In this document: one piece after another, positions 1 to 8,765 of the stretch | How positions within the stretch are numbered: position 1 is the first letter of the stretch | Layout: every line of letters starts with the position of its first letter | From: a virus | Lineage: Duplodnaviria; Heunggongvirae; Uroviricota; Caudoviricetes | Virus record (IMG/VR): IMGVR_UViG_3300028988_000042 | Direction: 5' to 3' (one strand) | DNA: 8,765 nt | Made by a program: the position numbers and the translations under genes | The notes under the pieces: model-generated | Told to the model about the DNA's origin: nothing | The model's input: only the letters and a program-made list of their open reading frames with translations | The model's database searches: none

Positions 1-53
1 TCGGCAGCACGCCGCGCATCGAGCGCCGCGTTGATTTTCTCCTGCCAGCTCAT
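1..53 (-). CDS. bioF: 8-amino-7-oxononanoate synthase, first ~17 codons only (gene continues beyond window start)
   Basis: Reverse complement of 1-53 reads ATG AGC TGG CAG GAG AAA ATC AAC GCG GCG CTC GAT GCG CGG CGT GCT GCC = [17 protein letters not shown], the E. coli BioF N-terminus as recalled. The ATG (51-53) overlaps the bioB TGA stop (50-52) in an ATGA arrangement, as in the bioBFCD operon. Confidence 0.85.
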
Positions 54-1090
54 AGTGCTGCCGCGTTGTAATATTCGTCAGTGTCCGGGGTCATCAGTGC
101 CTGCTCCAGACGCTGCTGTTGTTCGTTATCCCCTGCCAGCACGGCAGTTTGCTGCGGATTTAGCCCCAGTTTGCGAAACAGTTGCAGGTCTTTATCTTCT
201 TCCGGATTCGGCGTGGTTAGCAGTTTGCAACCGTAGAAAATCGAGTTTGCGCCTGCCATAAAGCACATCGCCTGAGTCTGTTCGTTCATCTGCTCGCGTC
301 CGGCAGAAAGGCGCACGTAAGAGGTCGGCATCATGATCCGCGCGACCGCAATGGTGCGAATAAAATCAAAGGCATCGACATCATCGTTATCCGCCAGCGG
401 CGTGCCTTTCACCTTCACCAGCATGTTGATTGGTACGCTTTCCGGCGGCGTCGGCAGGTTTGCCAGTTGTAGCAATAATCCGGCGCGATCTTTTACCGTT
501 TCGCCTAAGCCCACAATGCCGCCAGAACAGACTTTGATCCCGGCATCGCGCACTTTTTCCAGCGTATCGAGGCGTTCCTGATAAGTGCGGGTGGTGATGA
601 TATTGCCGTAAAACTCCGGCGAGGTGTCCAGGTTGTGGTTGTAGTAATCCAGCCCGGCGTTCGCGAGGCGCTGCGCCTGAGATTCACTCAACGTGCCCAG
701 CGTCATACACGCCTCCAGCCCCATCGCTTTTACCCCCTGCACCATTTGTTCCAGGTACGGCATATCGCGTTCGTGGGGATTCTTCCACGCCGCGCCCATA
801 CAGAAACGCGTCGATCCCGCAGCTTTCGCTTTGCGCGCCGACTCCAGCACCTGTTCAACTTCCATCAACCGCTCGGCTTCCAGCCCGGTTTTGTAGCGCG
901 AGCTTTGCGGGCAGTATTTGCAATCTTCCGGACAAGCTCCGGTCTTAATCGACAGCAAAGTGCTGACCTGCACCTGACGAGGATCGAAATGCTGTCGATG
1001 CACCTGCTGCGCTTCAAACAGCAGATCCAGCAACGGTTTTTCAAATAATTCTGTGACTTGCGACAATGTCCAGCGTGGGCGGTGAGCCAT
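50..1090 (-). CDS. bioB: biotin synthase (radical SAM)
   Basis: 346-aa ORF beginning [64 protein letters not shown], containing the CxxxCxxC radical-SAM motif; matches E. coli BioB in length and sequence as recalled. Confidence 0.97.
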
Positions 1091-1176
1091 GGGGCTTCTC
1101 CAAAACGTGTTTTTTGTTGTTAATTCGGTGTAGACTTGTAAACCTAAATCTTTTCAATTTGGTTTACAAGTCGATT
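1091..1176. promoter_or_regulatory. bioO: divergent bioA / bioBFCD promoter region with BirA operator (bioO); inverted repeat arms 1134-1144 and 1161-1171
   Basis: ACTTGTAAACC (1134-1144) and its exact reverse complement GGTTTACAAGT (1161-1171) separated by 16 bp, lying between the divergent bioB and bioA starts; corresponds to the known BirA-biotinyl-AMP operator of E. coli. Confidence 0.8.
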
Positions 1177-2466
1177 ATGACAACGGACGATCTTGCCTTT
1201 GACCAACGCCATATCTGGCACCCATACACATCCATGACCTCCCCTCTGCCGGTTTATCCGGTCGCGAGCGCCGAAGGTTGCGAGCTAATTTTGTCTGACG
1301 GCAGACGCCTGGTTGACGGTATGTCGTCCTGGTGGGCGGCGATCCACGGCTATAATCACCCGCAGCTTAATGCGGCGATGAAGTCGCAAATTGATGCTAT
1401 GTCGCATGTGATGTTTGGCGGTATCACCCATGCGCCCGCCATCGAGCTATGCCGCAAACTGGTGGCAATGACGCCGCAACCGCTGGAATGCGTTTTTCTC
1501 GCGGACTCCGGCTCCGTAGCGGTGGAAGTGGCGATGAAAATGGCGTTGCAGTACTGGCAGGCCAAAGGCGAAGCGCGCCAGCGTTTTCTGACCTTCCGCA
1601 ATGGTTATCATGGCGATACCTTTGGCGCGATGTCGGTGTGCGATCCGGACAACTCAATGCACAGCCTGTGGAAAGGCTATCTGCCAGAAAACTTGTTTGC
1701 TCCCGCCCCGCAAAGCCGCATGGATGGTGAATGGGATGAACGTGATATGGTTGGCTTTGCCCGCCTGATGGCGGCGCATCGTCATGAAATCGCGGCGGTG
1801 ATCATTGAACCGATTGTCCAGGGCGCAGGCGGGATGCGCATGTACCATCCGGAATGGTTAAAACGAATCCGCAAAATGTGCGATCGCGAAGGTATCTTGC
1901 TGATTGCCGACGAGATCGCCACCGGATTTGGTCGTACCGGCAAACTGTTTGCCTGTGAACATGCAGAAATCGCGCCGGACATTTTGTGCCTCGGTAAAGC
2001 CTTAACCGGCGGCACAATGACCCTTTCCGCCACGCTCACCACGCGCGAGGTTGCGGAAACCATCAGTAACGGCGAAGCCGGTTGCTTTATGCATGGGCCA
2101 ACTTTTATGGGCAATCCGCTGGCCTGCGCGGCAGCAAACGCCAGCCTGGCGATTCTCGAATCTGGCGACTGGCAGCAACAGGTGGCGGCTATTGAAGTAC
2201 AGCTGCGCGAGCAACTTGCCCCCGCCCGTGATGCCGAAATGGTTGCCGATGTGCGCGTGCTGGGGGCAATCGGCGTAGTCGAAACCACTCATCCGGTGAA
2301 TATGGCGGCGCTGCAAAAATTCTTTGTCGAACAGGGTGTCTGGATCCGGCCTTTTGGCAAACTGATTTACCTGATGCCGCCCTATATTATTCTCCCGCAA
2401 CAGTTGCAGCGTCTGACCGCAGCGGTTAACCGCGCGGTACAGGATGAAACATTTTTTTGCCAATAA
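1177..2466 (+). CDS. bioA: adenosylmethionine-8-amino-7-oxononanoate aminotransferase
   Basis: ATG at 1177 is in frame with ORF 1066-2466 and gives a 429-aa product [29 protein letters not shown]... ending ...[10 protein letters not shown], matching E. coli BioA. The upstream extension to 1066 would run through the bio operator and is rejected. Confidence 0.96.
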
Positions 2467-2524
2467 CGAGAAGTCCGCGTGAGGGTTTCTGGCTACACTT
2501 TCTGCAAACAAGAAAGGAGGGTTC

Positions 2525-3001
2525 ATGAAACTCATCAGTAACGATCTGCGCGATGGCGATAAATTGCCGCATCGTCATGTCTTTAACGGCATGGGTTACG
2601 ATGGCGATAATATTTCACCGCATCTGGCGTGGGATGATGTTCCTGCGGGAACGAAAAGTTTTGTTGTCACCTGCTACGACCCGGATGCGCCAACCGGCTC
2701 CGGCTGGTGGCACTGGGTAGTTGTTAACTTACCCGCTGATACCCGCGTATTACCGCAAGGGTTTGGCTCTGGTCTGGTAGCAATGCCAGACGGCGTTTTG
2801 CAGACGCGTACCGACTTTGGTAAAACCGGGTACGATGGCGCAGCACCGCCGAAAGGCGAAACTCATCGCTACATTTTTACCGTTCACGCGCTGGATATAG
2901 AACGTATTGATGTCGATGAAGGTGCCAGCGGCGCGATGGTCGGGTTTAACGTTCATTTCCACTCTCTGGCAAGCGCCTCGATTACTGCGATGTTTAGTTA
3001 A
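2525..3001 (+). CDS. ybhB: PEBP-family (phosphatidylethanolamine-binding / kinase-inhibitor-like) protein
   Basis: 158-aa ORF MKLISNDLRDGDKLPHRHVFNGMGYDGDNISPHLAWDDVPAGTKSFVVTCYDPDAPTGSGWWHW... preceded by AGGAGG 5 nt upstream of the ATG; matches E. coli YbhB, which lies between bioA and attB(lambda) in K-12. Confidence 0.95.
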   Translation: MKLISNDLRDGDKLPHRHVFNGMGYDGDNISPHLAWDDVPAGTKSFVVTCYDPDAPTGSGWWHWVVVNLPADTRVLPQGFGSGLVAMPDGVLQTRTDFGKTGYDGAAPPKGETHRYIFTVHALDIERIDVDEGASGAMVGFNVHFHSLASASITAMFS

Positions 3002-3009
3002 TCACTCTG

Positions 3010-3032
3010 CCAGATGGCGCAATGCCATCTGG
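3010..3032 (+). terminator. stem-loop downstream of ybhB (possible weak terminator of the bioA-ybhB transcript)
   Basis: CCAGATGGC (3010-3018) / GCCATCTGG (3024-3032), 9-bp perfect stem with a 5-nt loop, 9 nt after the ybhB stop. There is no clean U-tract immediately 3' (TATCACTT...), so intrinsic termination is uncertain. Confidence 0.3.
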
Positions 3033-3091
3033 TATCACTTAAAGGTATTAAAAACAACTTTTTGTCTTTTTACCTTCCCGTTTCGCTCAAG

Positions 3092-3106
3092 TTAGTATAA
3101 AAAAGT
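3092..3106 (-). other. attR: lambda-type att core (O) of a hybrid attR site; B' arm toward ybhB, P arm toward higher coordinates
   Basis: Minus strand reads TTCA-ACTTTTTTATACTAA-CTTGAGCGAAACGGGAAGG. The core matches lambda GCTTTTTTATACTAA at 14/15 (first base A instead of G), the 3' flank CTTGAGCGAAACG is the E. coli attB B' arm, and the 5' flank TTCA matches the lambda P arm. Confidence 0.8.
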
Positions 3107-3250
3107 TGAATGCGAAACGGTAAAAACCATTAATATCAACGTTTTATAATTGATTCAGTCTAAAAAATAGACTGCATAATGATACAAAACACAACATATC
3201 CAGTCACTATGAATCAACCACTTAGATGGTCTTAGTGACCTGTAACAGAG
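3107..3250 (-). other. lambda-like attP P arm with two inverted arm-type Int-binding-site-like repeats
   Basis: Minus strand reads CTCTGTTACAGGTCACTAAGACCATCTAAGTGGTTGATTCATAGTGACTGGATATGTTGTGTTTTG..., closely resembling the lambda P arm (P1/P2 region) as recalled. CAGTCACTAT at 3201-3210 and the inverted CAGGTCACTAA (reverse complement of 3232-3242) fit the arm-type Int site pattern. Confidence 0.65.
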
Positions 3251-3251
3251 C

Positions 3252-3294
3252 ATTAGCGCAAGGTGATTTTTTTGTCTTCTTGCGCTAATTTTTT
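3252..3294 (+). terminator. rho-independent terminator hairpin, candidate sib/tI-like retroregulator in the att P arm
   Basis: ATTAGCGCAAG (3252-3262) pairs perfectly with CTTGCGCTAAT (3279-3289), 16-nt T-rich loop, followed by a T-run to 3294. It is on the strand an int transcript would use when reading P' to O to P in the circular phage. Confidence 0.55.
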
Positions 3295-3608
3295 GTCAAC
3301 ACACTGGGTTAGCTGAATTTACAACCACGCTCAGTATCTCGATAAGCGCAGAGAAATGATGCAGTGGTGGGCGGACTGGATTGATGAAAAGGTGGAGTGA
3401 TCCGCCTTAACCATTATCGAAGAGCACAAAGCCTTGCAATCCAGTGCAATGCTTTGTGTATACCTATTTTCCCAAATTTGTTTCAGTAATATGTCGATCT
3501 CCAATTATTAGAATGGTACACTAAACAACGTGCGCAATTACAATAATGTAGCGTATAAAAAAACAAAAGCTAATTATATTTTTTAAATAAACATAGTGAA
3601 CTAAATAT

Positions 3609-4595
3609 ATGAGAAATTATAGCATAGATACTATGAGGTTTGTAGCGTGCTTTTTTATAATAGCTGTTCATATAGGTGGGTACCCGCAACAAGGAGAATT
3701 ATTTACAGAGGTATTTAGAGGTGTATCGCGATGGGCTGTGCCATTCTTCTTCCTGGTTACAGGATATTTTTTATCATGCCAAAACAAAAGAAAACTACTA
3801 TTAAGACTTACTAGGATAACATATATAACACTAATATTTAGCGTACTGTTCTTTATTTTTCAACTAACTTTGAACTATAAAGATGGATATTCATTAATTA
3901 TAAGCATCATAGATCCATTTATTTTTATCGGTGGGTCTTATTTCCATTTGTGGTTCTTGCCTTCAATCTTAATAGGTATGATTTCAGTAAGTTACATGAT
4001 AGAAAATGTTTCAGAAAATTTTGGAATCTCTTTAAGTATACTTATTATATTTATAATATGGTGCGTTGATTTCTTTGGTACTGCCTACTTCTCACATGAT
4101 ATATATGAATCAACAAGAACTATTCTATCAATACCAACAATATATATAGGGTATTACTTATACACTAAGAAAGACATAATTATAAAATCTAACGGGAATT
4201 TATTGATTTTATGTATGCTAGCTTCCGTGGTTTTTTCCGTGATTGAGATTCTAATATACAAATCAATATATGGTTCACTTGCCAATATAAGAGAACTACC
4301 TTTATTTTCTGTTATTACTGCTATAATAATACTAATGTTATCTATAAGATCACAAAGCACAAAAGAGACTGTTCTATCAAGGATAGGAAGAGATGATTCT
4401 ATCGTCATATATCTTATTCACCCACTATTTATAGTTTTAATATCAAAGGTGTTTAGGGTTGCTCATGAATATAACGGGATGGCTATTCTTGTGATTACAT
4501 TTATTGTAAGCATTTCGTTTTCATTGTTTGTCAAGAGTAAATTTCCTTCAATATATTCATTTCTTACTGGCGGTTTTATAAAAGAAACAAAATAA
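3609..4595 (+). CDS. acyltransferase family 3 (AT3) integral membrane protein; candidate prophage-encoded O-antigen O-acetyltransferase (lysogenic conversion)
   Basis: 328-aa very hydrophobic ORF with ~10 predicted TM segments. AT3 hallmarks: R-x10-H in the first helix (MRFVACFFIIAVH), VPFFFLVTGYFL (FFxxSG-type motif), and a C-terminal YLIHP motif. Visibly AT-rich relative to flanking DNA. Sits between attR and the tailspike, where P22-like phages carry serotype-conversion genes. Confidence 0.8.
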   Translation: MRNYSIDTMRFVACFFIIAVHIGGYPQQGELFTEVFRGVSRWAVPFFFLVTGYFLSCQNKRKLLLRLTRITYITLIFSVLFFIFQLTLNYKDGYSLIISIIDPFIFIGGSYFHLWFLPSILIGMISVSYMIENVSENFGISLSILIIFIIWCVDFFGTAYFSHDIYESTRTILSIPTIYIGYYLYTKKDIIIKSNGNLLILCMLASVVFSVIEILIYKSIYGSLANIRELPLFSVITAIIILMLSIRSQSTKETVLSRIGRDDSIVIYLIHPLFIVLISKVFRVAHEYNGMAILVITFIVSISFSLFVKSKFPSIYSFLTGGFIKETK

Positions 4596-4605
4596 ACCAT
4601 AAAAC

Positions 4606-4630
4606 ACACCACCATAATATATGGTGGTGT
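4606..4630. terminator. bidirectional stem-loop terminator between the convergent acyltransferase and tailspike genes
   Basis: ACACCACCAT (4606-4615) / ATGGTGGTGT (4621-4630), 10-bp perfect stem with a 5-nt loop; A-rich on the 5' side (a U-tract for the minus-strand transcript) and T-containing on the 3' side. Lies in the 57-bp gap between the two stop codons. Confidence 0.55.
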
Positions 4631-4652
4631 ATCAAATTATTTCTGAGCTGAT

Positions 4653-6551
4653 TTACATGTCATTTTCTGAATTATAAATAAGTACAACCTGACCTGAATA
4701 CGTTGCTTGTGATGACCACCCTGTATCCATATTGTATGGCCTGATCCTTACTTGGCTTGAACTAATTAATCTAGCTTTTATAAGCCATGTATCATCGTTT
4801 GTGTTTGCTGCTACCTCCTGAATTGATACTGTATTTGCTGGCTGGAATTGATCTGGTATTGCTCTTGTTACAACCCTTGACGATCCAGATACTGTTAGTG
4901 TGAAAAACTCCCTACCCGATGTTGATATAGATTGGCAACCTTCAGAAAAGTTGTTTCTTATATCTGGTCTGGATGATCTTCCTTCTGCTATGGTCTTCAT
5001 GCGAATAACGCTAAGTGGCATTACAGTTCCCGTTGTATTACGGAATCTGCAACCTGTTATCTTAACCTGAAACGGATTTGATATAAGATTTATTGCAACT
5101 CCATGTTCAGGTACTAACCAGTTGCATGAGCTAACAGTAAATCTCGCACCGTCTGAGTTTGATTCAATTAAGCATCCATCGAAATAGCATCCAACAAAAA
5201 TATCTGCGTTAGACATTATAACCACACGCCCTTTTGCGCTATCAGCAGACTGATTTGGATAAAAATGACTATTACTAAAAGAATTTGCTCCTTTACGTAA
5301 ATACATAACATCTGCATACTGTGAACCAATAACTAAGTCTGAGAAGTTATTATCATAGTTGTTGATATCCAAGCCAACGCCATCTGTAACGTTAGTTGGG
5401 TAAGAAGCATTCCAATCTGGTTGTTGAAATATAAACGTTTTTCCCACATTTAATTCATGTGGCTGTGAGTCATTAGGTTCAGTCTTTAATCCATAACGCA
5501 AGTATCTTGTCAGTAGACCTCCCAATATAGTCACTTTCAAAAAGTCATCATAAACCCTAATTGCGCCGGAAGCTTTCCAGTTAGCATCGATATTAGGATT
5601 AAATACCACGATGTTTTCAATTGGTCTAGAGCCGTTAACTTTACGAAAATCTAGAACAGGTTCTGTAGAAGGAAATGCTCCAATTGCTAAAAGAGATGGA
5701 TTCAACATAGAAAAATTCAAACAATCTGTTATTGTAAATGGACGTGATACATAGTAAGTGCCCTGAGTCATATCAAAAACAGTGCCACCCAAATTGTACA
5801 TGTTTGGATCTTCTCTATCAGTTGAGTAAGTTGTTTTGCGATTTCTCTTGATTATACTATCTCTCCACAAATCCAGTGCATCAGAGCTGTCGAATGTTGA
5901 ATCGCATGGTTTTGCTCCGTAATTTCTTGGGTCATCTACTGAATACCCAGAAAGAAATCCAACACACACCCATGTTGAGTCTGGAGTGGAGCCTGGCGTA
6001 ACTATATAACCATCAATTGGTATATTTCCTATATATGAATAATACATTCCATCTGAATATTTGAATGATTCGTATTTATTTAATATCACTCCGCCAACTG
6101 ACATATCTCCAGATTTTTTGTATACATATGGCATGTAATCGCTATAAACATTACCACCATATGTGCTCCCGACAATCTTATCTCCATTGTTTGATGAAAT
6201 ATCAACTCGCAACTGATCAGGATCATACTTCAGTAAATTAGGAAAATAGAACTGCTGCACACCATATGCATCATAAACAGCCATAGAGTGGCCTTGCACA
6301 GTTACGAACTTGGCAATCTGTCCGTTATATACAGGGTAACCAGCAGCGTTAATGATGATTGGTTGCGAAACAGGAACGTGAGAGCCGTCTTCGTTCTCCA
6401 CATAAACCTGAATCTGGTTTTCAGGGTTTTCCGGGTCAGTGTCAATTTTACCGATATAAATTTTGCCATTGGCTACGGCTTTAAAAGAACGAGCCATAGT
6501 GAAGAGTTGCGAAGGCATGCTTACCACAACATTTGCGGTGATATCTGACAT
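4653..6551 (-). CDS. tailspike protein: P22 gp9-like N-terminal head-binding domain fused to a divergent receptor-binding domain
   Basis: From ATG 6551 (GGAG 7 nt upstream) the product starts [40 protein letters not shown]...LKYDPDQLR, close to the P22 tailspike N-terminus [40 protein letters not shown]...LKYDPDQY as recalled. After the DPDQ hinge (6213-6224) the remaining ~515 aa are unrelated to P22 gp9 and AT-rich. The track ORF start at 6599 is rejected for the homology-supported ATG with an SD. Confidence 0.9.
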
Positions 6552-6576
6552 TTCATTGCTCCAGACGAATGATATG

Positions 6577-6599
6577 ATGCAATCATGATGTGATTGCAT
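6577..6599. promoter_or_regulatory. perfect inverted repeat, candidate operator for the Mnt-like repressor in the divergent tailspike/mnt intergenic region
   Basis: ATGCAATCA (6577-6585) - TGATG - TGATTGCAT (6591-6599): 9-bp arms, 5-bp spacer. Each arm carries a TTGCAT (-35-like) hexamer, one per strand. Located 26 bp upstream of the tailspike start codon and 74 bp upstream of the mnt-like start codon. Confidence 0.4.
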
Positions 6600-6672
6600 A
6601 CCGAAATGGTACTATTGAGTATTTATCCAGTAGGTTACGATGCCATTCCACCCAACTGGTGAGGCATCAAGG

Positions 6673-6933
6673 ATGTACAGCAAATACGACGAGGCGCAGT
6701 TTCACTTGAGACTTCCGCATGAACTCCACGCGAAAATTAAACAGCGCGCGAAGATGAATAACAGGTCGCTGAACTCAGAGATAATTGCAGCGATTGAAGA
6801 ATCATTGGCTAAACAAAGCTCTGCATCAGTTTACATTGACGATGCAGAGCGTATGGCAGAACAACAATCTGATATGGTTAAGAAAATTGTCTTTGATACG
6901 CTCAAGGAGCTATATAAAAAAGACAGCAACTAA
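6673..6933 (+). CDS. mnt: Mnt-like ribbon-helix-helix (Arc/MetJ superfamily) repressor
   Basis: MYSKYDEAQFHLRLPHELHAKIKQRAKMNNRSLNSEIIAAIEESL...DAERMAEQQSDMVKKIVFDTLKELYKK aligns with P22 Mnt (...HFNFRMPMEVREKLKFRAEANGRSMNSELLQIVQDAL...DAERLADEQSELVKKMVFDTLKDLYKK) as recalled. Start chosen at ATG 6673 (GAGG 8 nt upstream, length matches Mnt); the in-frame ATG at 6640 is an alternative. Confidence 0.85.
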   Translation: MYSKYDEAQFHLRLPHELHAKIKQRAKMNNRSLNSEIIAAIEESLAKQSSASVYIDDAERMAEQQSDMVKKIVFDTLKELYKKDSN

Positions 6934-6953
6934 CCATCCATTACGGAGGATTT

Positions 6954-7031
6954 ATGCAAAGAGATATGATGAATATTACATTCTACATATTTGGTTTTTG
7001 CACTTTCCTGGTGTTTGCAAAGCTATTCTGA
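6954..7031 (+). CDS. hypothetical 25-aa hydrophobic micro-protein (single predicted TM helix)
   Basis: ATG 6954 with GGAGG at 6945-6949 (4-nt spacer); translation MQRDMMNITFYIFGFCTFLVFAKLF then TGA. Directly downstream of mnt on the same strand and overlaps the 3' end of the convergent ejection-protein gene by 9 bp. No homology evidence; could be fortuitous. Confidence 0.2.
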   Translation: MQRDMMNITFYIFGFCTFLVFAKLF

Positions 7032-8531
7032 CAACGCATCAGACTTAGCCCCCTGCGTCATAGCGTTAATTGCCTTTTGTGCCTGCTGCATGGCTTTCTC
7101 AAACGCTGTTGATCCGCGTGGGGTGTTTGCCATTCGGAGCATTGCATTTCTGAATGGCTCGCTCTCATAGGCGCGAGTGAGAAGTCCGTAGCTTACTGCT
7201 GCGCCAGTTGTCGCCGGGTTCATTGCCGTCCCATACCCAATAATGAACGGGATAGTTTGCTGCCCTGTGGGTGTTGTTACTGCCGCTTTTGCAGCCTGCT
7301 GCGTGGATTGCAGGTAGTTTTTCAATCCTTTCAGATAAGCGGCTTCCTGACCTTTAAATGTGATGCCAGTCTGGTTTTGCAGGATGTTAAGCTGCCGAAG
7401 GAACTGGTCAGGGGAACCACCTGATTTCTCCATCGCCTTTCCAATGATGCCATTGCGCATTTGCGCCCTGCCAACACGACCAACTGAGTTATACAGAGTC
7501 TTAATTTCCGATTTGTTCTTGCTGAATAGCATGTTGTTGACAACTTCCGGCGTAAGATCGCCTTTCATGAGAACATTCTTCAGCCTGGTATTCTTTAGTT
7601 TCGCCGCTTCGTCAGCGTAAACGGCATTGGCCTGCTGATATTTACGGAGAGTATCGCTGCCAAGATTCTGACCAATGGCACCATTGATATCGTCGGTCAT
7701 TGCCTTGTAAACTCGCTGAATGGCAGCATCGGAACGGTTTGGTAATACCGGTCGCTCACCCTTCACGTCCATTCTGAACTGGCTGCGCAGGTCGCTTAAT
7801 TGCTTCAAATCCAGATTTACCGGACCATCAGGGCCAGCATTGCGAACAAGCTCATCACGATATGACTGAAGTTTTGAAATTGTCTCGTTATCAGCTACCT
7901 TACCAAGCTTCTGCAGATTAGATATCTCAGTATCAATCTGCTGAATTGCTCGCGCAGGCTGAATGTTTACTCCAGCCATAGCATTCTGAACCTGCTCCAG
8001 TCGATTACCGGCGGCACGACGAATTCCTGATGTTTTCGTTTTAAGGCTGCCAATAACAACCGCTGGATCATACTCGCCGAATTTATCAGCAAATCTCTGC
8101 ACCAACTGACTTCTCGCTTCCTGTTGCGTTGCTCTCATTCCGCTTGTGCCAGCCAGGGGAATATTTTCTGCTGTAGTCTGCGCCATTTTCCCGACGCGGG
8201 AAGTAGGCTGTAACAGGTCTGTGGTGTGCAGAGGCACTCCTTCACGCTCTGCAAATCTGATAGCTTGCTGCGCTTCTGGTGCAATAGCACCACGAACGCC
8301 ACGATAAGCAGCGCCTAATCCACGTCCGGCAGCGTTAATAGCGCCGCCAGCCAGAACGCCAACGCCTAAATCGGTGGCGAGTGCTTCCGCATCATCTTTC
8401 GCACTATTTGCAGCAAGTGATCCAACTGCGTTTTCAGCGAGAAGGCGAGTTGCCCCCTGAGCAATTCGACCAGCAAGTGTTGGTGCCTGTGCTGCCGCTC
8501 TCTCAACGCCAGCAGGAGTGAGGTAAGGCAA
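7023..8531 (-). CDS. phage virion internal / DNA-ejection-type protein (position equivalent to P22 gene 16); true 5' end uncertain
   Basis: Long ORF with Ala/Gly/Gln/Lys-rich composition typical of P22-like ejection proteins, located immediately upstream of the immunity-I/tailspike region on the tailspike strand. The listed start is a TTG with no good SD, and the frame stays open with protein-like translation up to a TAA at 8760-8762, so the real start is probably upstream. Confidence 0.6.
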   Translation of the reverse strand: MPYLTPAGVERAAAQAPTLAGRIAQGATRLLAENAVGSLAANSAKDDAEALATDLGVGVLAGGAINAAGRGLGAAYRGVRGAIAPEAQQAIRFAEREGVPLHTTDLLQPTSRVGKMAQTTAENIPLAGTSGMRATQQEARSQLVQRFADKFGEYDPAVVIGSLKTKTSGIRRAAGNRLEQVQNAMAGVNIQPARAIQQIDTEISNLQKLGKVADNETISKLQSYRDELVRNAGPDGPVNLDLKQLSDLRSQFRMDVKGERPVLPNRSDAAIQRVYKAMTDDINGAIGQNLGSDTLRKYQQANAVYADEAAKLKNTRLKNVLMKGDLTPEVVNNMLFSKNKSEIKTLYNSVGRVGRAQMRNGIIGKAMEKSGGSPDQFLRQLNILQNQTGITFKGQEAAYLKGLKNYLQSTQQAAKAAVTTPTGQQTIPFIIGYGTAMNPATTGAAVSYGLLTRAYESEPFRNAMLRMANTPRGSTAFEKAMQQAQKAINAMTQGAKSDALSE

Positions 8532-8765
8532 TGCTTCAGCAAATACCCTTCCCTCTGTCGTTTGTGGAGTCAGCGCGCCTTGCTGAAAGCCAAAGTCCTG
8601 CTCTAATCCCTGCGTTGTTACTCGTGGCGCTGGTTGATATGTACCATCGCCAATACCGAGTTTACCGCCAGCCCAAGTGAAGTGGTCAACAAAAACTGGC
8701 CACCGAGTTAGAGTTTTTTCCAGTATCGATTTTCCGATTCGTTTGGTGGTAACCCACCATTATAT

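What the first reader, a model, noticed from the sequence alone, without database searches (positions are those of the whole stretch)
8532..8765. Ejection-protein gene lacks a canonical start in its own frame; possible frameshift at a T6 run
Upstream of the TTG at 8531 the same frame stays open for 76 more codons of protein-like sequence (...FTWAGGKLGIGDGTYQPAPRVTTQGLEQDFGFQQGALTPQTTEGRVFAEA) up to a TAA at 8760-8762, with no ATG, GTG or TTG in between. An ATG at 8758-8760 overlaps that TAA in a TAATG coupling arrangement but is in a different frame and terminates after 24 codons at 8686-8688. One base fewer in the T6 run at 8714-8719 (A6 on the coding strand) would join the ATG frame to the long frame. 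So this is either a frameshifted (inactivated) virion gene, implying a defective prophage, a sequencing error at a homopolymer, or a non-canonical start.
Basis: seen in the sequence. Interest (0 to 1): 0.5.

Follow-up and report, generated by a model that had tools for sequence, protein, structure and literature searches.

The report
Insertion sequence cuts phage ejection gene
The gene has no start codon because a common jumping gene (an IS3-family insertion sequence) cuts off its first 115 codons, and the last 88 bases of the window belong to that element; this is an ordinary way for a prophage to decay.

Summary
The frameshift explanation is wrong.

- **What the last 88 bases are.** Window 8765..8678 (minus strand) is the right end of a 1250-bp IS3-family insertion sequence of the ISEc52/IS911 type. 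It matches full copies in E. coli and in Salmonella phage SEN22 at 100%.
- **Where the gene starts.** Homology to the phage gene begins exactly at 8677. From there to 7023 the window encodes residues 116-665 of a 665-residue P22 gp16 / Sf6 gp13 family DNA-ejection protein. These 550 residues are identical to intact E. coli prophage copies, which start MAKAWKD... 343 nt further upstream.
- **The "start" codons.** The TTG at 8531 is internal codon 164. The ATG at 8758-8760 lies out of frame inside the transposase gene.
- **The T6/A6 run.** It lies in the last codons of the transposase gene. It is the usual allele of this element: 790 E. coli records match it exactly, against 30 for an A5 version. 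IS911 has A5.
- **Is the junction real?** The same junction occurs in five other assemblies, and all of them break inside the element.

The ejection gene is therefore inactivated and the prophage is defective, but by transposition. It is not a frameshift, a sequencing error or an unusual start codon. Whether the 5' fragment of the gene survives beyond the element could not be determined. This is ordinary and of low interest.

The parts
8678..8765 (-). Last 88 nt of a 1250-bp IS3-family insertion sequence (ISEc52 type, IS911-like). It holds the last 18 codons of transposase orfB and the right terminal inverted repeat, which ends ...GTTGACCACTTCA-3' at 8678. The rest of the element lies beyond the end of the window.
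   Evidence: 100% identical over 88/88 nt to the end of the 'transposon' in Salmonella phage SEN22 and to E. coli copies annotated 'IS3-like element ISEc52 family transposase'. In the alignment the window follows the element up to 8678 and the phage gene from 8677. Full copies are 1250 bp, have TGAAGTGGT... terminal repeats and 3-bp target duplications, and carry orfA and orfB with rve domains (NF033516, E=3.8e-90).
8708..8764 (-). C-terminal codons of transposase orfB, YNGGLPPNESENRYWKKL, with stop TAA at 8710-8708. This is the only real coding frame in these 88 bases.
   Evidence: Translation. It is identical to the C-terminus of the 272-aa orfB of the full copy in L019.
8714..8719 (-). A6 run (T6 on the + strand), forming the two Lys codons near the end of orfB. 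IS911 has A5 here. With A5, orfB would read on to the TGA at 8688-8686 inside the terminal repeat (...RYWKNSNSVASFC*).
   Evidence: Alignment (IS911 copy from strain SCU-316 has one A fewer). 790 E. coli records hold a 100% match to the A6 end, against 30 for an A5 version. A6 is present in all five other assemblies that carry the junction.
8758..8760 (-). It is an out-of-frame ATG spanning the Asn-Gly codons (aAT Ggt) of orfB and is not a start codon. The 'TAATG' overlap is incidental.
   Evidence: Searches compared; the frame table.
7023..8677 (-). The 3' 1655 nt of a 1998-nt P22 gp16 / Sf6 gp13 family DNA-ejection (DNA transfer) gene: the last two bases of codon 115, codons 116-665, and the stop at 7025-7023. 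It has no promoter-proximal part and no start codon.
   Evidence: 550/550 aa identical to residues 116-665 of the intact 665-aa gene of E. coli Ec40743. 95.8-97.4% nt identity to Sf6 gene 13 and relatives, starting at query base 89. PHROG 770 'DNA transfer protein' matches at profile positions 104-666 of 668. PF26808 Phage_P22_gp16 is on record for the identical product.
8529..8531 (-). TTG that ORF finders take as the start of a 502-aa product. It is internal Leu codon 164 of the intact gene. The nearest Shine-Dalgarno-like stretch (GGGAAGGG) ends 14 nt upstream.
6673..6933 (+). Context: Arc/Mnt-family repressor gene (86 aa, or 97 aa from 6640), between the ejection gene and the tailspike gene.
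   Evidence: Families on record for the identical sequence in L004. The window is 100% identical to L004.
4653..6551 (-). Context: tailspike gene with a P22-type head-binding domain (632 aa; the ORF from the first ATG runs to 6599).
3609..4595 (+). Context: acyltransferase-3 family gene, the last gene of the prophage.
3092..3106 (-). Context: lambda-type attachment core ACTTTTTTATACTAA (14 of 15 bases). It marks the prophage end next to ybhB (2525-3001), bioA (1177-2466) and bioB (50-1090).
   Evidence: 0.04 matches expected by chance; gene families.

Best explanation
The window ends 88 bases inside an ISEc52-type (IS911-like, IS3-family) insertion sequence. Its right end is joined to the middle of codon 115 of a P22 gp16 / Sf6 gp13 family ejection-protein gene, in a P22-like prophage at the lambda attachment site of E. 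coli.

Transposition, or a rearrangement bounded by the element, has separated the 3' 550 codons from the gene's promoter, ribosome-binding site, ATG and first 115 codons. That is why no start codon is found. The frame stays open for 27 more codons through the end of the element only by chance. The ATG and the A6 run belong to the transposase gene.

The gp16-family protein is one of the ejection proteins that short-tailed phages need for infectivity. The prophage therefore cannot make infectious particles on its own.

- **Shown:** the identity of the two sequences, the exact breakpoint, the intact form of the gene, and the recurrence of the junction.
- **Inferred:** loss of function.
- **Not determined:** what lies beyond the element.
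For: 1. **Breakpoint.** Window 8765-8678 is 100% identical to the end of the element in SEN22 and in E. coli. Window 8677 downward is 100% identical to intact prophage genes. The switch is sharp, at ...CACTTCA|CTTGGG.
2. **Background.** Window 1-8677 is 100% identical to E. coli JNE170426 and LR-51, where the gene is an uninterrupted 665 codons. The protein is 550/550 identical from residue 116.
3. **Homologue lengths.** Of the 15 listed members of the 1036-member protein cluster, 12 are 665 aa. The 502-aa form is on 6 contigs only.
4. **The element.** Full copies are 1250 bp. They have TG...CA ends, orfA and orfB, an A AAA AAG slippery site, an rve domain and 3-bp target duplications (CAG, AAT).
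5. **Recurrence.** The identical junction is present in five other assemblies (two NCBI assemblies, three ENA metagenome assemblies). Each ends 118-127 nt inside the element, as short-read assemblies do at repeats.
6. **The TTG.** It is codon 164 of the intact gene, and there are no alternative start codons between codons 100 and 163.
7. **Function.** Ejection proteins are required for infectivity, and the Sf6 homologue is 665 aa (PMC8954989).
Against: - The window and all five related contigs stop inside the element. The left end, a target-site duplication and the 5' fragment of the gene were not seen.
- The predicted left-junction DNA and its predicted protein products were not found. Two of the collections searched also lack the right junction, so their negative result carries little weight.
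- No complete E. coli genome in the collection carries this junction.
- Loss of infectivity is inferred from P22 and T7 biology, not tested in this prophage.
Confidence: 0.95

Rival explanations
1. One reading: the ejection gene starts at the ATG at 8758-8760 and carries a one-base insertion, or a sequencing error, in the A6/T6 run at 8714-8719.
For: Deleting one A does join the ATG frame to the long frame (for the frames).
Against: All of 8678-8765, including the ATG and the A6 run, is 100% identical to an insertion-sequence end found in thousands of unrelated places. Intact homologues share nothing with it and start MAKAWKD... 343 nt upstream of the breakpoint. A6 is the common allele of the element (790 records against 30) and recurs in five assemblies.
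Confidence: 0.01
2. The gene is a real, shorter protein that starts at the TTG at 8531 or at another non-canonical start. It would be a functional N-terminally truncated ejection protein, possibly transcribed from an outward promoter in the end of the element.
For: Gene callers do call the 502-aa TTG product. The terminal repeat contains TTGACC 8 nt from its tip. From my own knowledge, IS911 uses this as the -35 of its junction promoter.
Against: The TTG is internal codon 164 of a 665-codon gene. No Shine-Dalgarno sequence sits at a useful distance. No sigma-70-like promoter was found across the junction. No homologue family begins here: 12 of the 15 listed members of the protein cluster are 665 aa.
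Confidence: 0.03
3. The junction is an assembly artefact: a chimeric join at a repeat. The gene would be intact in the real genome.
For: The window and all related contigs end inside a multicopy repeat. No complete genome shows the junction.
Against: Six assemblies, counting the window, made with different k-mer sizes (k119, k127) and from different submissions, share the identical junction base for base. If the gene were intact, assemblers would read straight through this single-copy sequence. A contig that runs up to one k-mer length into a repeat and then stops is the expected signature of a true insertion.
Confidence: 0.03
4. A variant of the best explanation. The junction is one edge of a deletion bounded by the element, not a simple insertion. 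That deletion would have removed the 5' part of gp16 and the upstream virion genes, leaving only the tailspike and acyltransferase end of the prophage.
For: E. coli LR-51 is 100% identical to the window over 1-8677. It has the same element in the same orientation 3.4 kb further on, between a tail-needle gene fragment and an integrase fragment, with no target duplication. The predicted left junction and its protein products were not found anywhere.
Against: JNE170426, whose prophage continues to the coat gene, is equally 100% identical to the window. The failure to find the left junction is weak evidence, because two of the collections searched also lack the right junction, and the exact-sequence look-up fails on a single residue difference.
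Confidence: 0.35

Closest known systems
ISEc52 / IS911 (IS3 family insertion sequences of enterobacteria)
   Same: The 88 nt in the window match ISEc52-annotated copies at 100% and IS911-annotated copies at about 95-97%. Those copies are 1250 bp and have TGAAGTGGT...ACCACTTCA ends, orfA and orfB with an A AAA AAG slippery site, a DDE (rve) transposase and 3-bp target duplications.
   Different: Only the last 88 nt are in the window. Compared with IS911, this type has A6 instead of A5 near the end of orfB, so orfB ends ...YWKKL* rather than at the TGA inside the terminal repeat. Its left repeat also differs from the right.
Shigella phage Sf6 gene 13 / Salmonella phage P22 gene 16 (DNA-ejection, 'DNA transfer' protein)
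   Same: 95.8% nt identity to Sf6 gene 13 over the compared stretch. The full length in intact relatives is the same 665 aa, and the gene order is the same: gp7, gp20, gp16, then the immunity-region repressor and the tailspike.
   Different: Codons 1-115 are missing from this copy and replaced by the end of the element. The gene here is a pseudogene fragment.
The same element inserted in other P22-like genomes: Salmonella phage SEN22 (immunity region) and the E. coli LR-51 prophage remnant
   Same: Same element. The last 88 nt are identical to the window in both, both copies span 1250 bp, and both interrupt a P22-like phage genome.
   Different: The insertion sites differ. SEN22 has a 3-bp duplication (AAT), which indicates a simple insertion. 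LR-51 has none and is flanked by gene fragments, which indicates a deletion.

Membership tests
IS3 family insertion sequence (ISEc52 / IS911 type) | Terminal inverted repeats that start 5'-TG and end CA-3' | tested here: met
   The window end reads ...GTTGACCACTTCA at 8678. Full copies start TGAAGTGGT and end ACCACTTCA. Only the right end is in the window.
IS3 family insertion sequence (ISEc52 / IS911 type) | Two overlapping reading frames (orfA, orfB) joined by a -1 programmed frameshift, with a DDE/rve transposase in orfB | tested here: met
   The window holds only the last 18 codons of orfB. In full copies whose ends match the window at 100%: orfA 100-112 aa, orfB 272 aa, rve E=1e-31, NF033516 IS3 family transposase E=3.8e-90, and A AAA AAG at position 324.
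IS3 family insertion sequence (ISEc52 / IS911 type) | 3-bp (sometimes 4-bp) target-site duplication flanking the element | not testable with these tools
   The left end lies outside the window and outside all related contigs. Other copies show CAG and AAT duplications. The expected duplication here is CTT.
IS3 family insertion sequence (ISEc52 / IS911 type) | Multicopy and found at unrelated genomic sites | tested here: met
   8945 places in 3939 of 5426 E. coli genomes, on chromosomes and plasmids.
P22 gp16 / Sf6 gp13 ejection-protein family (PF26808, PHROG 770) | Sequence match to the family profile | tested here: met
   PHROG 770, E=2.5e-213, profile positions 104-666 of 668. PF26808 is on record for the identical product. 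The local Pfam and NCBIfam copies gave no hit even for the intact protein, so they do not appear to cover this family.
P22 gp16 / Sf6 gp13 ejection-protein family (PF26808, PHROG 770) | Complete reading frame of about 609-665 codons with its own start, placed after the gp7 and gp20 genes | tested here: not met
   The first 115 codons and the upstream genes are absent from the window. The intact arrangement is seen in L003 and L009-L012. This copy is a gene fragment, not a functional member.
Frameshifted gene / programmed frameshift at a homopolymer | Homologous protein sequence on both sides of the homopolymer, in two frames | tested here: not met
   Upstream of the breakpoint at 8677, no frame resembles gp16-family proteins. 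All 88 nt belong to the element.

The most novel reading that the evidence does not exclude
The stranded 550-codon C-terminal part of the ejection gene might still be expressed, by read-out from the element or from a hybrid promoter that uses the TTGACC in the terminal repeat. The lysogen might then keep it because it interferes with the ejection channel of incoming P22-like phages, as a domesticated exclusion factor. The evidence does not exclude this. However, no promoter or ribosome-binding site was found, and the insertion looks very recent: the flanking 8677 nt are 100% identical to strains with the intact gene.
Probability: 0.02. Interest if true: 0.4.

Novelty: already known. Interest (0 to 1): 0.06.

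Why it matters
This matters mainly as a correction. An apparent 'gene without a start, possibly frameshifted' at the edge of a contig is really the boundary of a mobile element. Annotators should record a pseudogene fragment plus a partial insertion sequence. They should not record a 502-aa TTG-initiated protein, which is how gene callers have recorded it in public collections.

Biologically it is one more example of insertion sequences eroding a P22-like prophage at the E. coli lambda attachment site, while the tailspike and acyltransferase end of the prophage stays intact.

Tried and rejected
- **Junction searches in DNA collections.** The right junction was not found in the species-representative genomes or the JGI metagenomes. 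The predicted left junction (gp16 codon 115, 0-6 nt, then the left repeat) was not found in either collection. Because the right junction is also absent from both, these negatives say nothing about the left side.
- **Left-junction protein products.** A homologue search with the predicted 149-aa fusion returned only ordinary partial gp16 N-termini, none with a tail derived from the element. Exact look-up of five predicted variants found none.
- **Tailspike look-up.** Exact look-up of the 648-aa tailspike ORF found nothing. Callers use a downstream start that gives 632 aa.
- **Local Pfam and NCBIfam copies.** Neither recognises the gp16 family, even in the intact protein. PHROGs and the precomputed Pfam hits were used instead.
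- **PGAP's 'frameshifted' flag on ISEc52 copies.** I considered it as evidence that A6 is a mutation. I rejected it because an A5 copy carries the same flag.
- **Hybrid promoter at the junction.** None was found.

Full report
**Observation.** On the minus strand the window begins atataATGgtgggttaccaccaaacgaatcggaaaatcgatactggAAAAAActctaactcggtggccagtttttgTTGAccacttca|cttgggctggcgg....
- The long frame has TAA at 8762-8760 and then runs open to the stop at 7025-7023.
- Its first ATG/GTG/TTG is the TTG at 8531, which gives a 502-aa ORF.
- The ATG at 8760-8758 is in another frame and stops after 24 codons at TGA 8688-8686.
- The A6 run is at 8719-8714.

**What the last 88 bases are.** A similarity search with window 8300-8765 split the query in two.
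- Bases 89-466 of the query (window 8677 downward) match Sf6 gene 13 and its relatives at 95-100%.
- Bases 1-88 (window 8765-8678) match something else: a 'transposon' in Salmonella phage SEN22 at 100%, and thousands of places in E. coli.

A four-way alignment shows that the window follows the SEN22 element exactly up to ...GTTGACCACTTCA. It then follows the intact E. coli Ec40743 and Sf6 genes exactly from CTTGGGCTGG. The breakpoint is therefore between 8678 and 8677.

Searched alone, the 88 bases occur at 8945 places in 3939 of 5426 E. coli genomes. The features under them are annotated 'IS3-like element ISEc52 family transposase' (100% matches) or 'IS911 family transposase' (about 95-97%).

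Full copies whose ends match the window at 100% have these properties:
- They are 1250 bp and start TGAAGTGGT and end ACCACTTCA.
- They have 3-bp target duplications (CAG in strain CAVp367, AAT in SEN22).
- They carry orfA and a 272-aa orfB with rve domains. orfB matches NF033516 'IS3 family transposase' at E=3.8e-90.
- They have an A AAA AAG slippery site at position 324.

The only real coding frame in window 8764-8708 is the end of orfB, YNGGLPPNESENRYWKKL*.

**What the gene is.** Window 8677-7023 encodes 550 residues identical (550/550) to residues 116-665 of the intact 665-aa protein of E. coli Ec40743.
- That intact gene starts ATG GCT AAA (MAKAWKD...), 343 nt upstream of the breakpoint.
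- The Sf6 homologue is gene 13, 'similar to phage P22 gene 16 protein', and follows the gp7- and gp20-like genes.
- The fragment matches PHROG 770 'DNA transfer protein' at profile positions 104-666 of 668.
- PF26808 Phage_P22_gp16 is on record for the identical product.

So it belongs to the gp16 family, not gp20. Of the 15 listed members of the 1036-member protein cluster, 12 are 665 aa. In the intact gene there is no ATG, GTG or TTG between codons 100 and 163. The TTG at 8531 is simply Leu codon 164, with no usable Shine-Dalgarno sequence.

**The 76 'extra' codons.** They are 27 codons of incidental open frame through the end of the element, one junction codon, and 48 real gp16 codons. A stop-free frame of 27 codons occurs in 15% of shuffles of those 88 bases.

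**The T6/A6 run.** It lies in the two Lys codons near the end of orfB. An IS911 copy has A5 at this position.

The A6 allele is the common one. 790 E. coli records hold an exact match to the A6 end, against 30 for an A5 version. All five other assemblies with this junction also have A6. It is not a sequencing error in this window, and it has nothing to do with the ejection gene. PGAP marks these transposase genes 'frameshifted', but it does the same for an A5 copy, so the flag does not bear on the run.

**Is the junction real?** The 502-aa product is on record on contigs from three ENA metagenome assemblies and two NCBI assemblies.
- All five contigs carry the identical junction and stop 118-127 nt inside the element. 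This is the usual behaviour of short-read assemblers at a repeat.
- The window is 100% identical to one of them (L004) over all 8765 nt.
- No complete E. coli genome in the collection has the junction.

**Context.** Window 1-8677 is 100% identical to the chromosomes of E. coli JNE170426 and LR-51.

| Window coordinates | Strand | Feature |
|---|---|---|
| 50-1090 | - | bioB |
| 1177-2466 | + | bioA |
| 2525-3001 | + | ybhB |
| 3092-3106 | - | lambda-type att core, 14/15 bases |
| 3609-4595 | + | acyltransferase |
| 4653-6551 | - | tailspike |
| 6673-6933 | + | Arc/Mnt repressor |
| 7023-8677 | - | gp16 fragment |

This is the right end of a P22-like prophage at the lambda attachment site. In JNE170426 the prophage continues through gp20, gp7, the needle gene and on to the coat gene.

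In LR-51 the same element, in the same orientation, sits 3.4 kb further on. It lies between a needle-gene fragment and a lambda-Int-like integrase fragment and has no target duplication. That is a deletion bounded by the element.

**What remains open.** Whether the window's junction is a simple insertion, with the 5' 343 nt on the far side, or the edge of a deletion could not be decided. The predicted left junction was not found as DNA or as protein.

**Mechanism and consequence.** An IS3-family element has cut the gene in codon 115, either by copy-out/paste-in transposition or by a later rearrangement at one of its ends. The remaining 550 codons have no promoter-proximal part and no start codon. 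No sigma-70-like promoter spans the junction.

Ejection proteins of short-tailed phages are required for infectivity (PMC8954989). From my own knowledge, P22 gene 16 mutants make particles that cannot deliver their DNA. The prophage is therefore inferred to be defective.

**Verdict.** This is an ordinary, well-understood event, and the annotation of a 502-aa TTG-initiated protein is an artefact of gene calling on a truncated gene. Interest is low.

Noticed in passing
window 3092-3106 (- strand): A lambda-type attachment core, ACTTTTTTATACTAA (14 of 15 bases), lies 91 nt after ybhB. The P22-like prophage therefore occupies the classical lambda site between bio and ybhC, and relatives carry a lambda-Int-like integrase (L013 19863-20327).
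   Followed up: partly
L013 18511-19760 (E. coli LR-51, AP027550.1): A strain 100% identical to the window over 1-8677 carries the same 1250-bp element in the same orientation. It sits between a tail-needle gene fragment and an integrase fragment and has no 3-bp duplication (GCG against GCC). This is a deletion, bounded by the element, of most of the prophage.
   Followed up: partly
window 8714-8719; L018 (IS911), L019/L020/L022 (ISEc52): ISEc52-type ends have A6 where IS911 has A5. This moves the transposase stop from the TGA inside the terminal repeat to a TAA 22 nt upstream (...YWKKL*). A6 is much the commoner allele (790 E. coli records against 30), so the shortened C-terminus is evidently compatible with spread. 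PGAP flags both alleles as 'frameshifted'.
   Followed up: partly
window 7023-8531 (- strand); L004-L008: Public gene calls record the truncated gene as a 502-aa TTG-initiated protein on six contigs. This is an annotation artefact that could spread into protein databases.
   Followed up: yes
L005 6380-7510: One related metagenome contig has an IS605-family OrfB (TnpB-like) gene inserted between ybhB and bioA. The window lacks it. The bio region of that contig is only 97% identical to the window.
   Followed up: no
window 4653-6599 (- strand): The tailspike ORF from the first ATG is 648 aa. Public gene calls for the identical DNA use a start 16 codons downstream (632 aa). The true start was not examined.
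   Followed up: no
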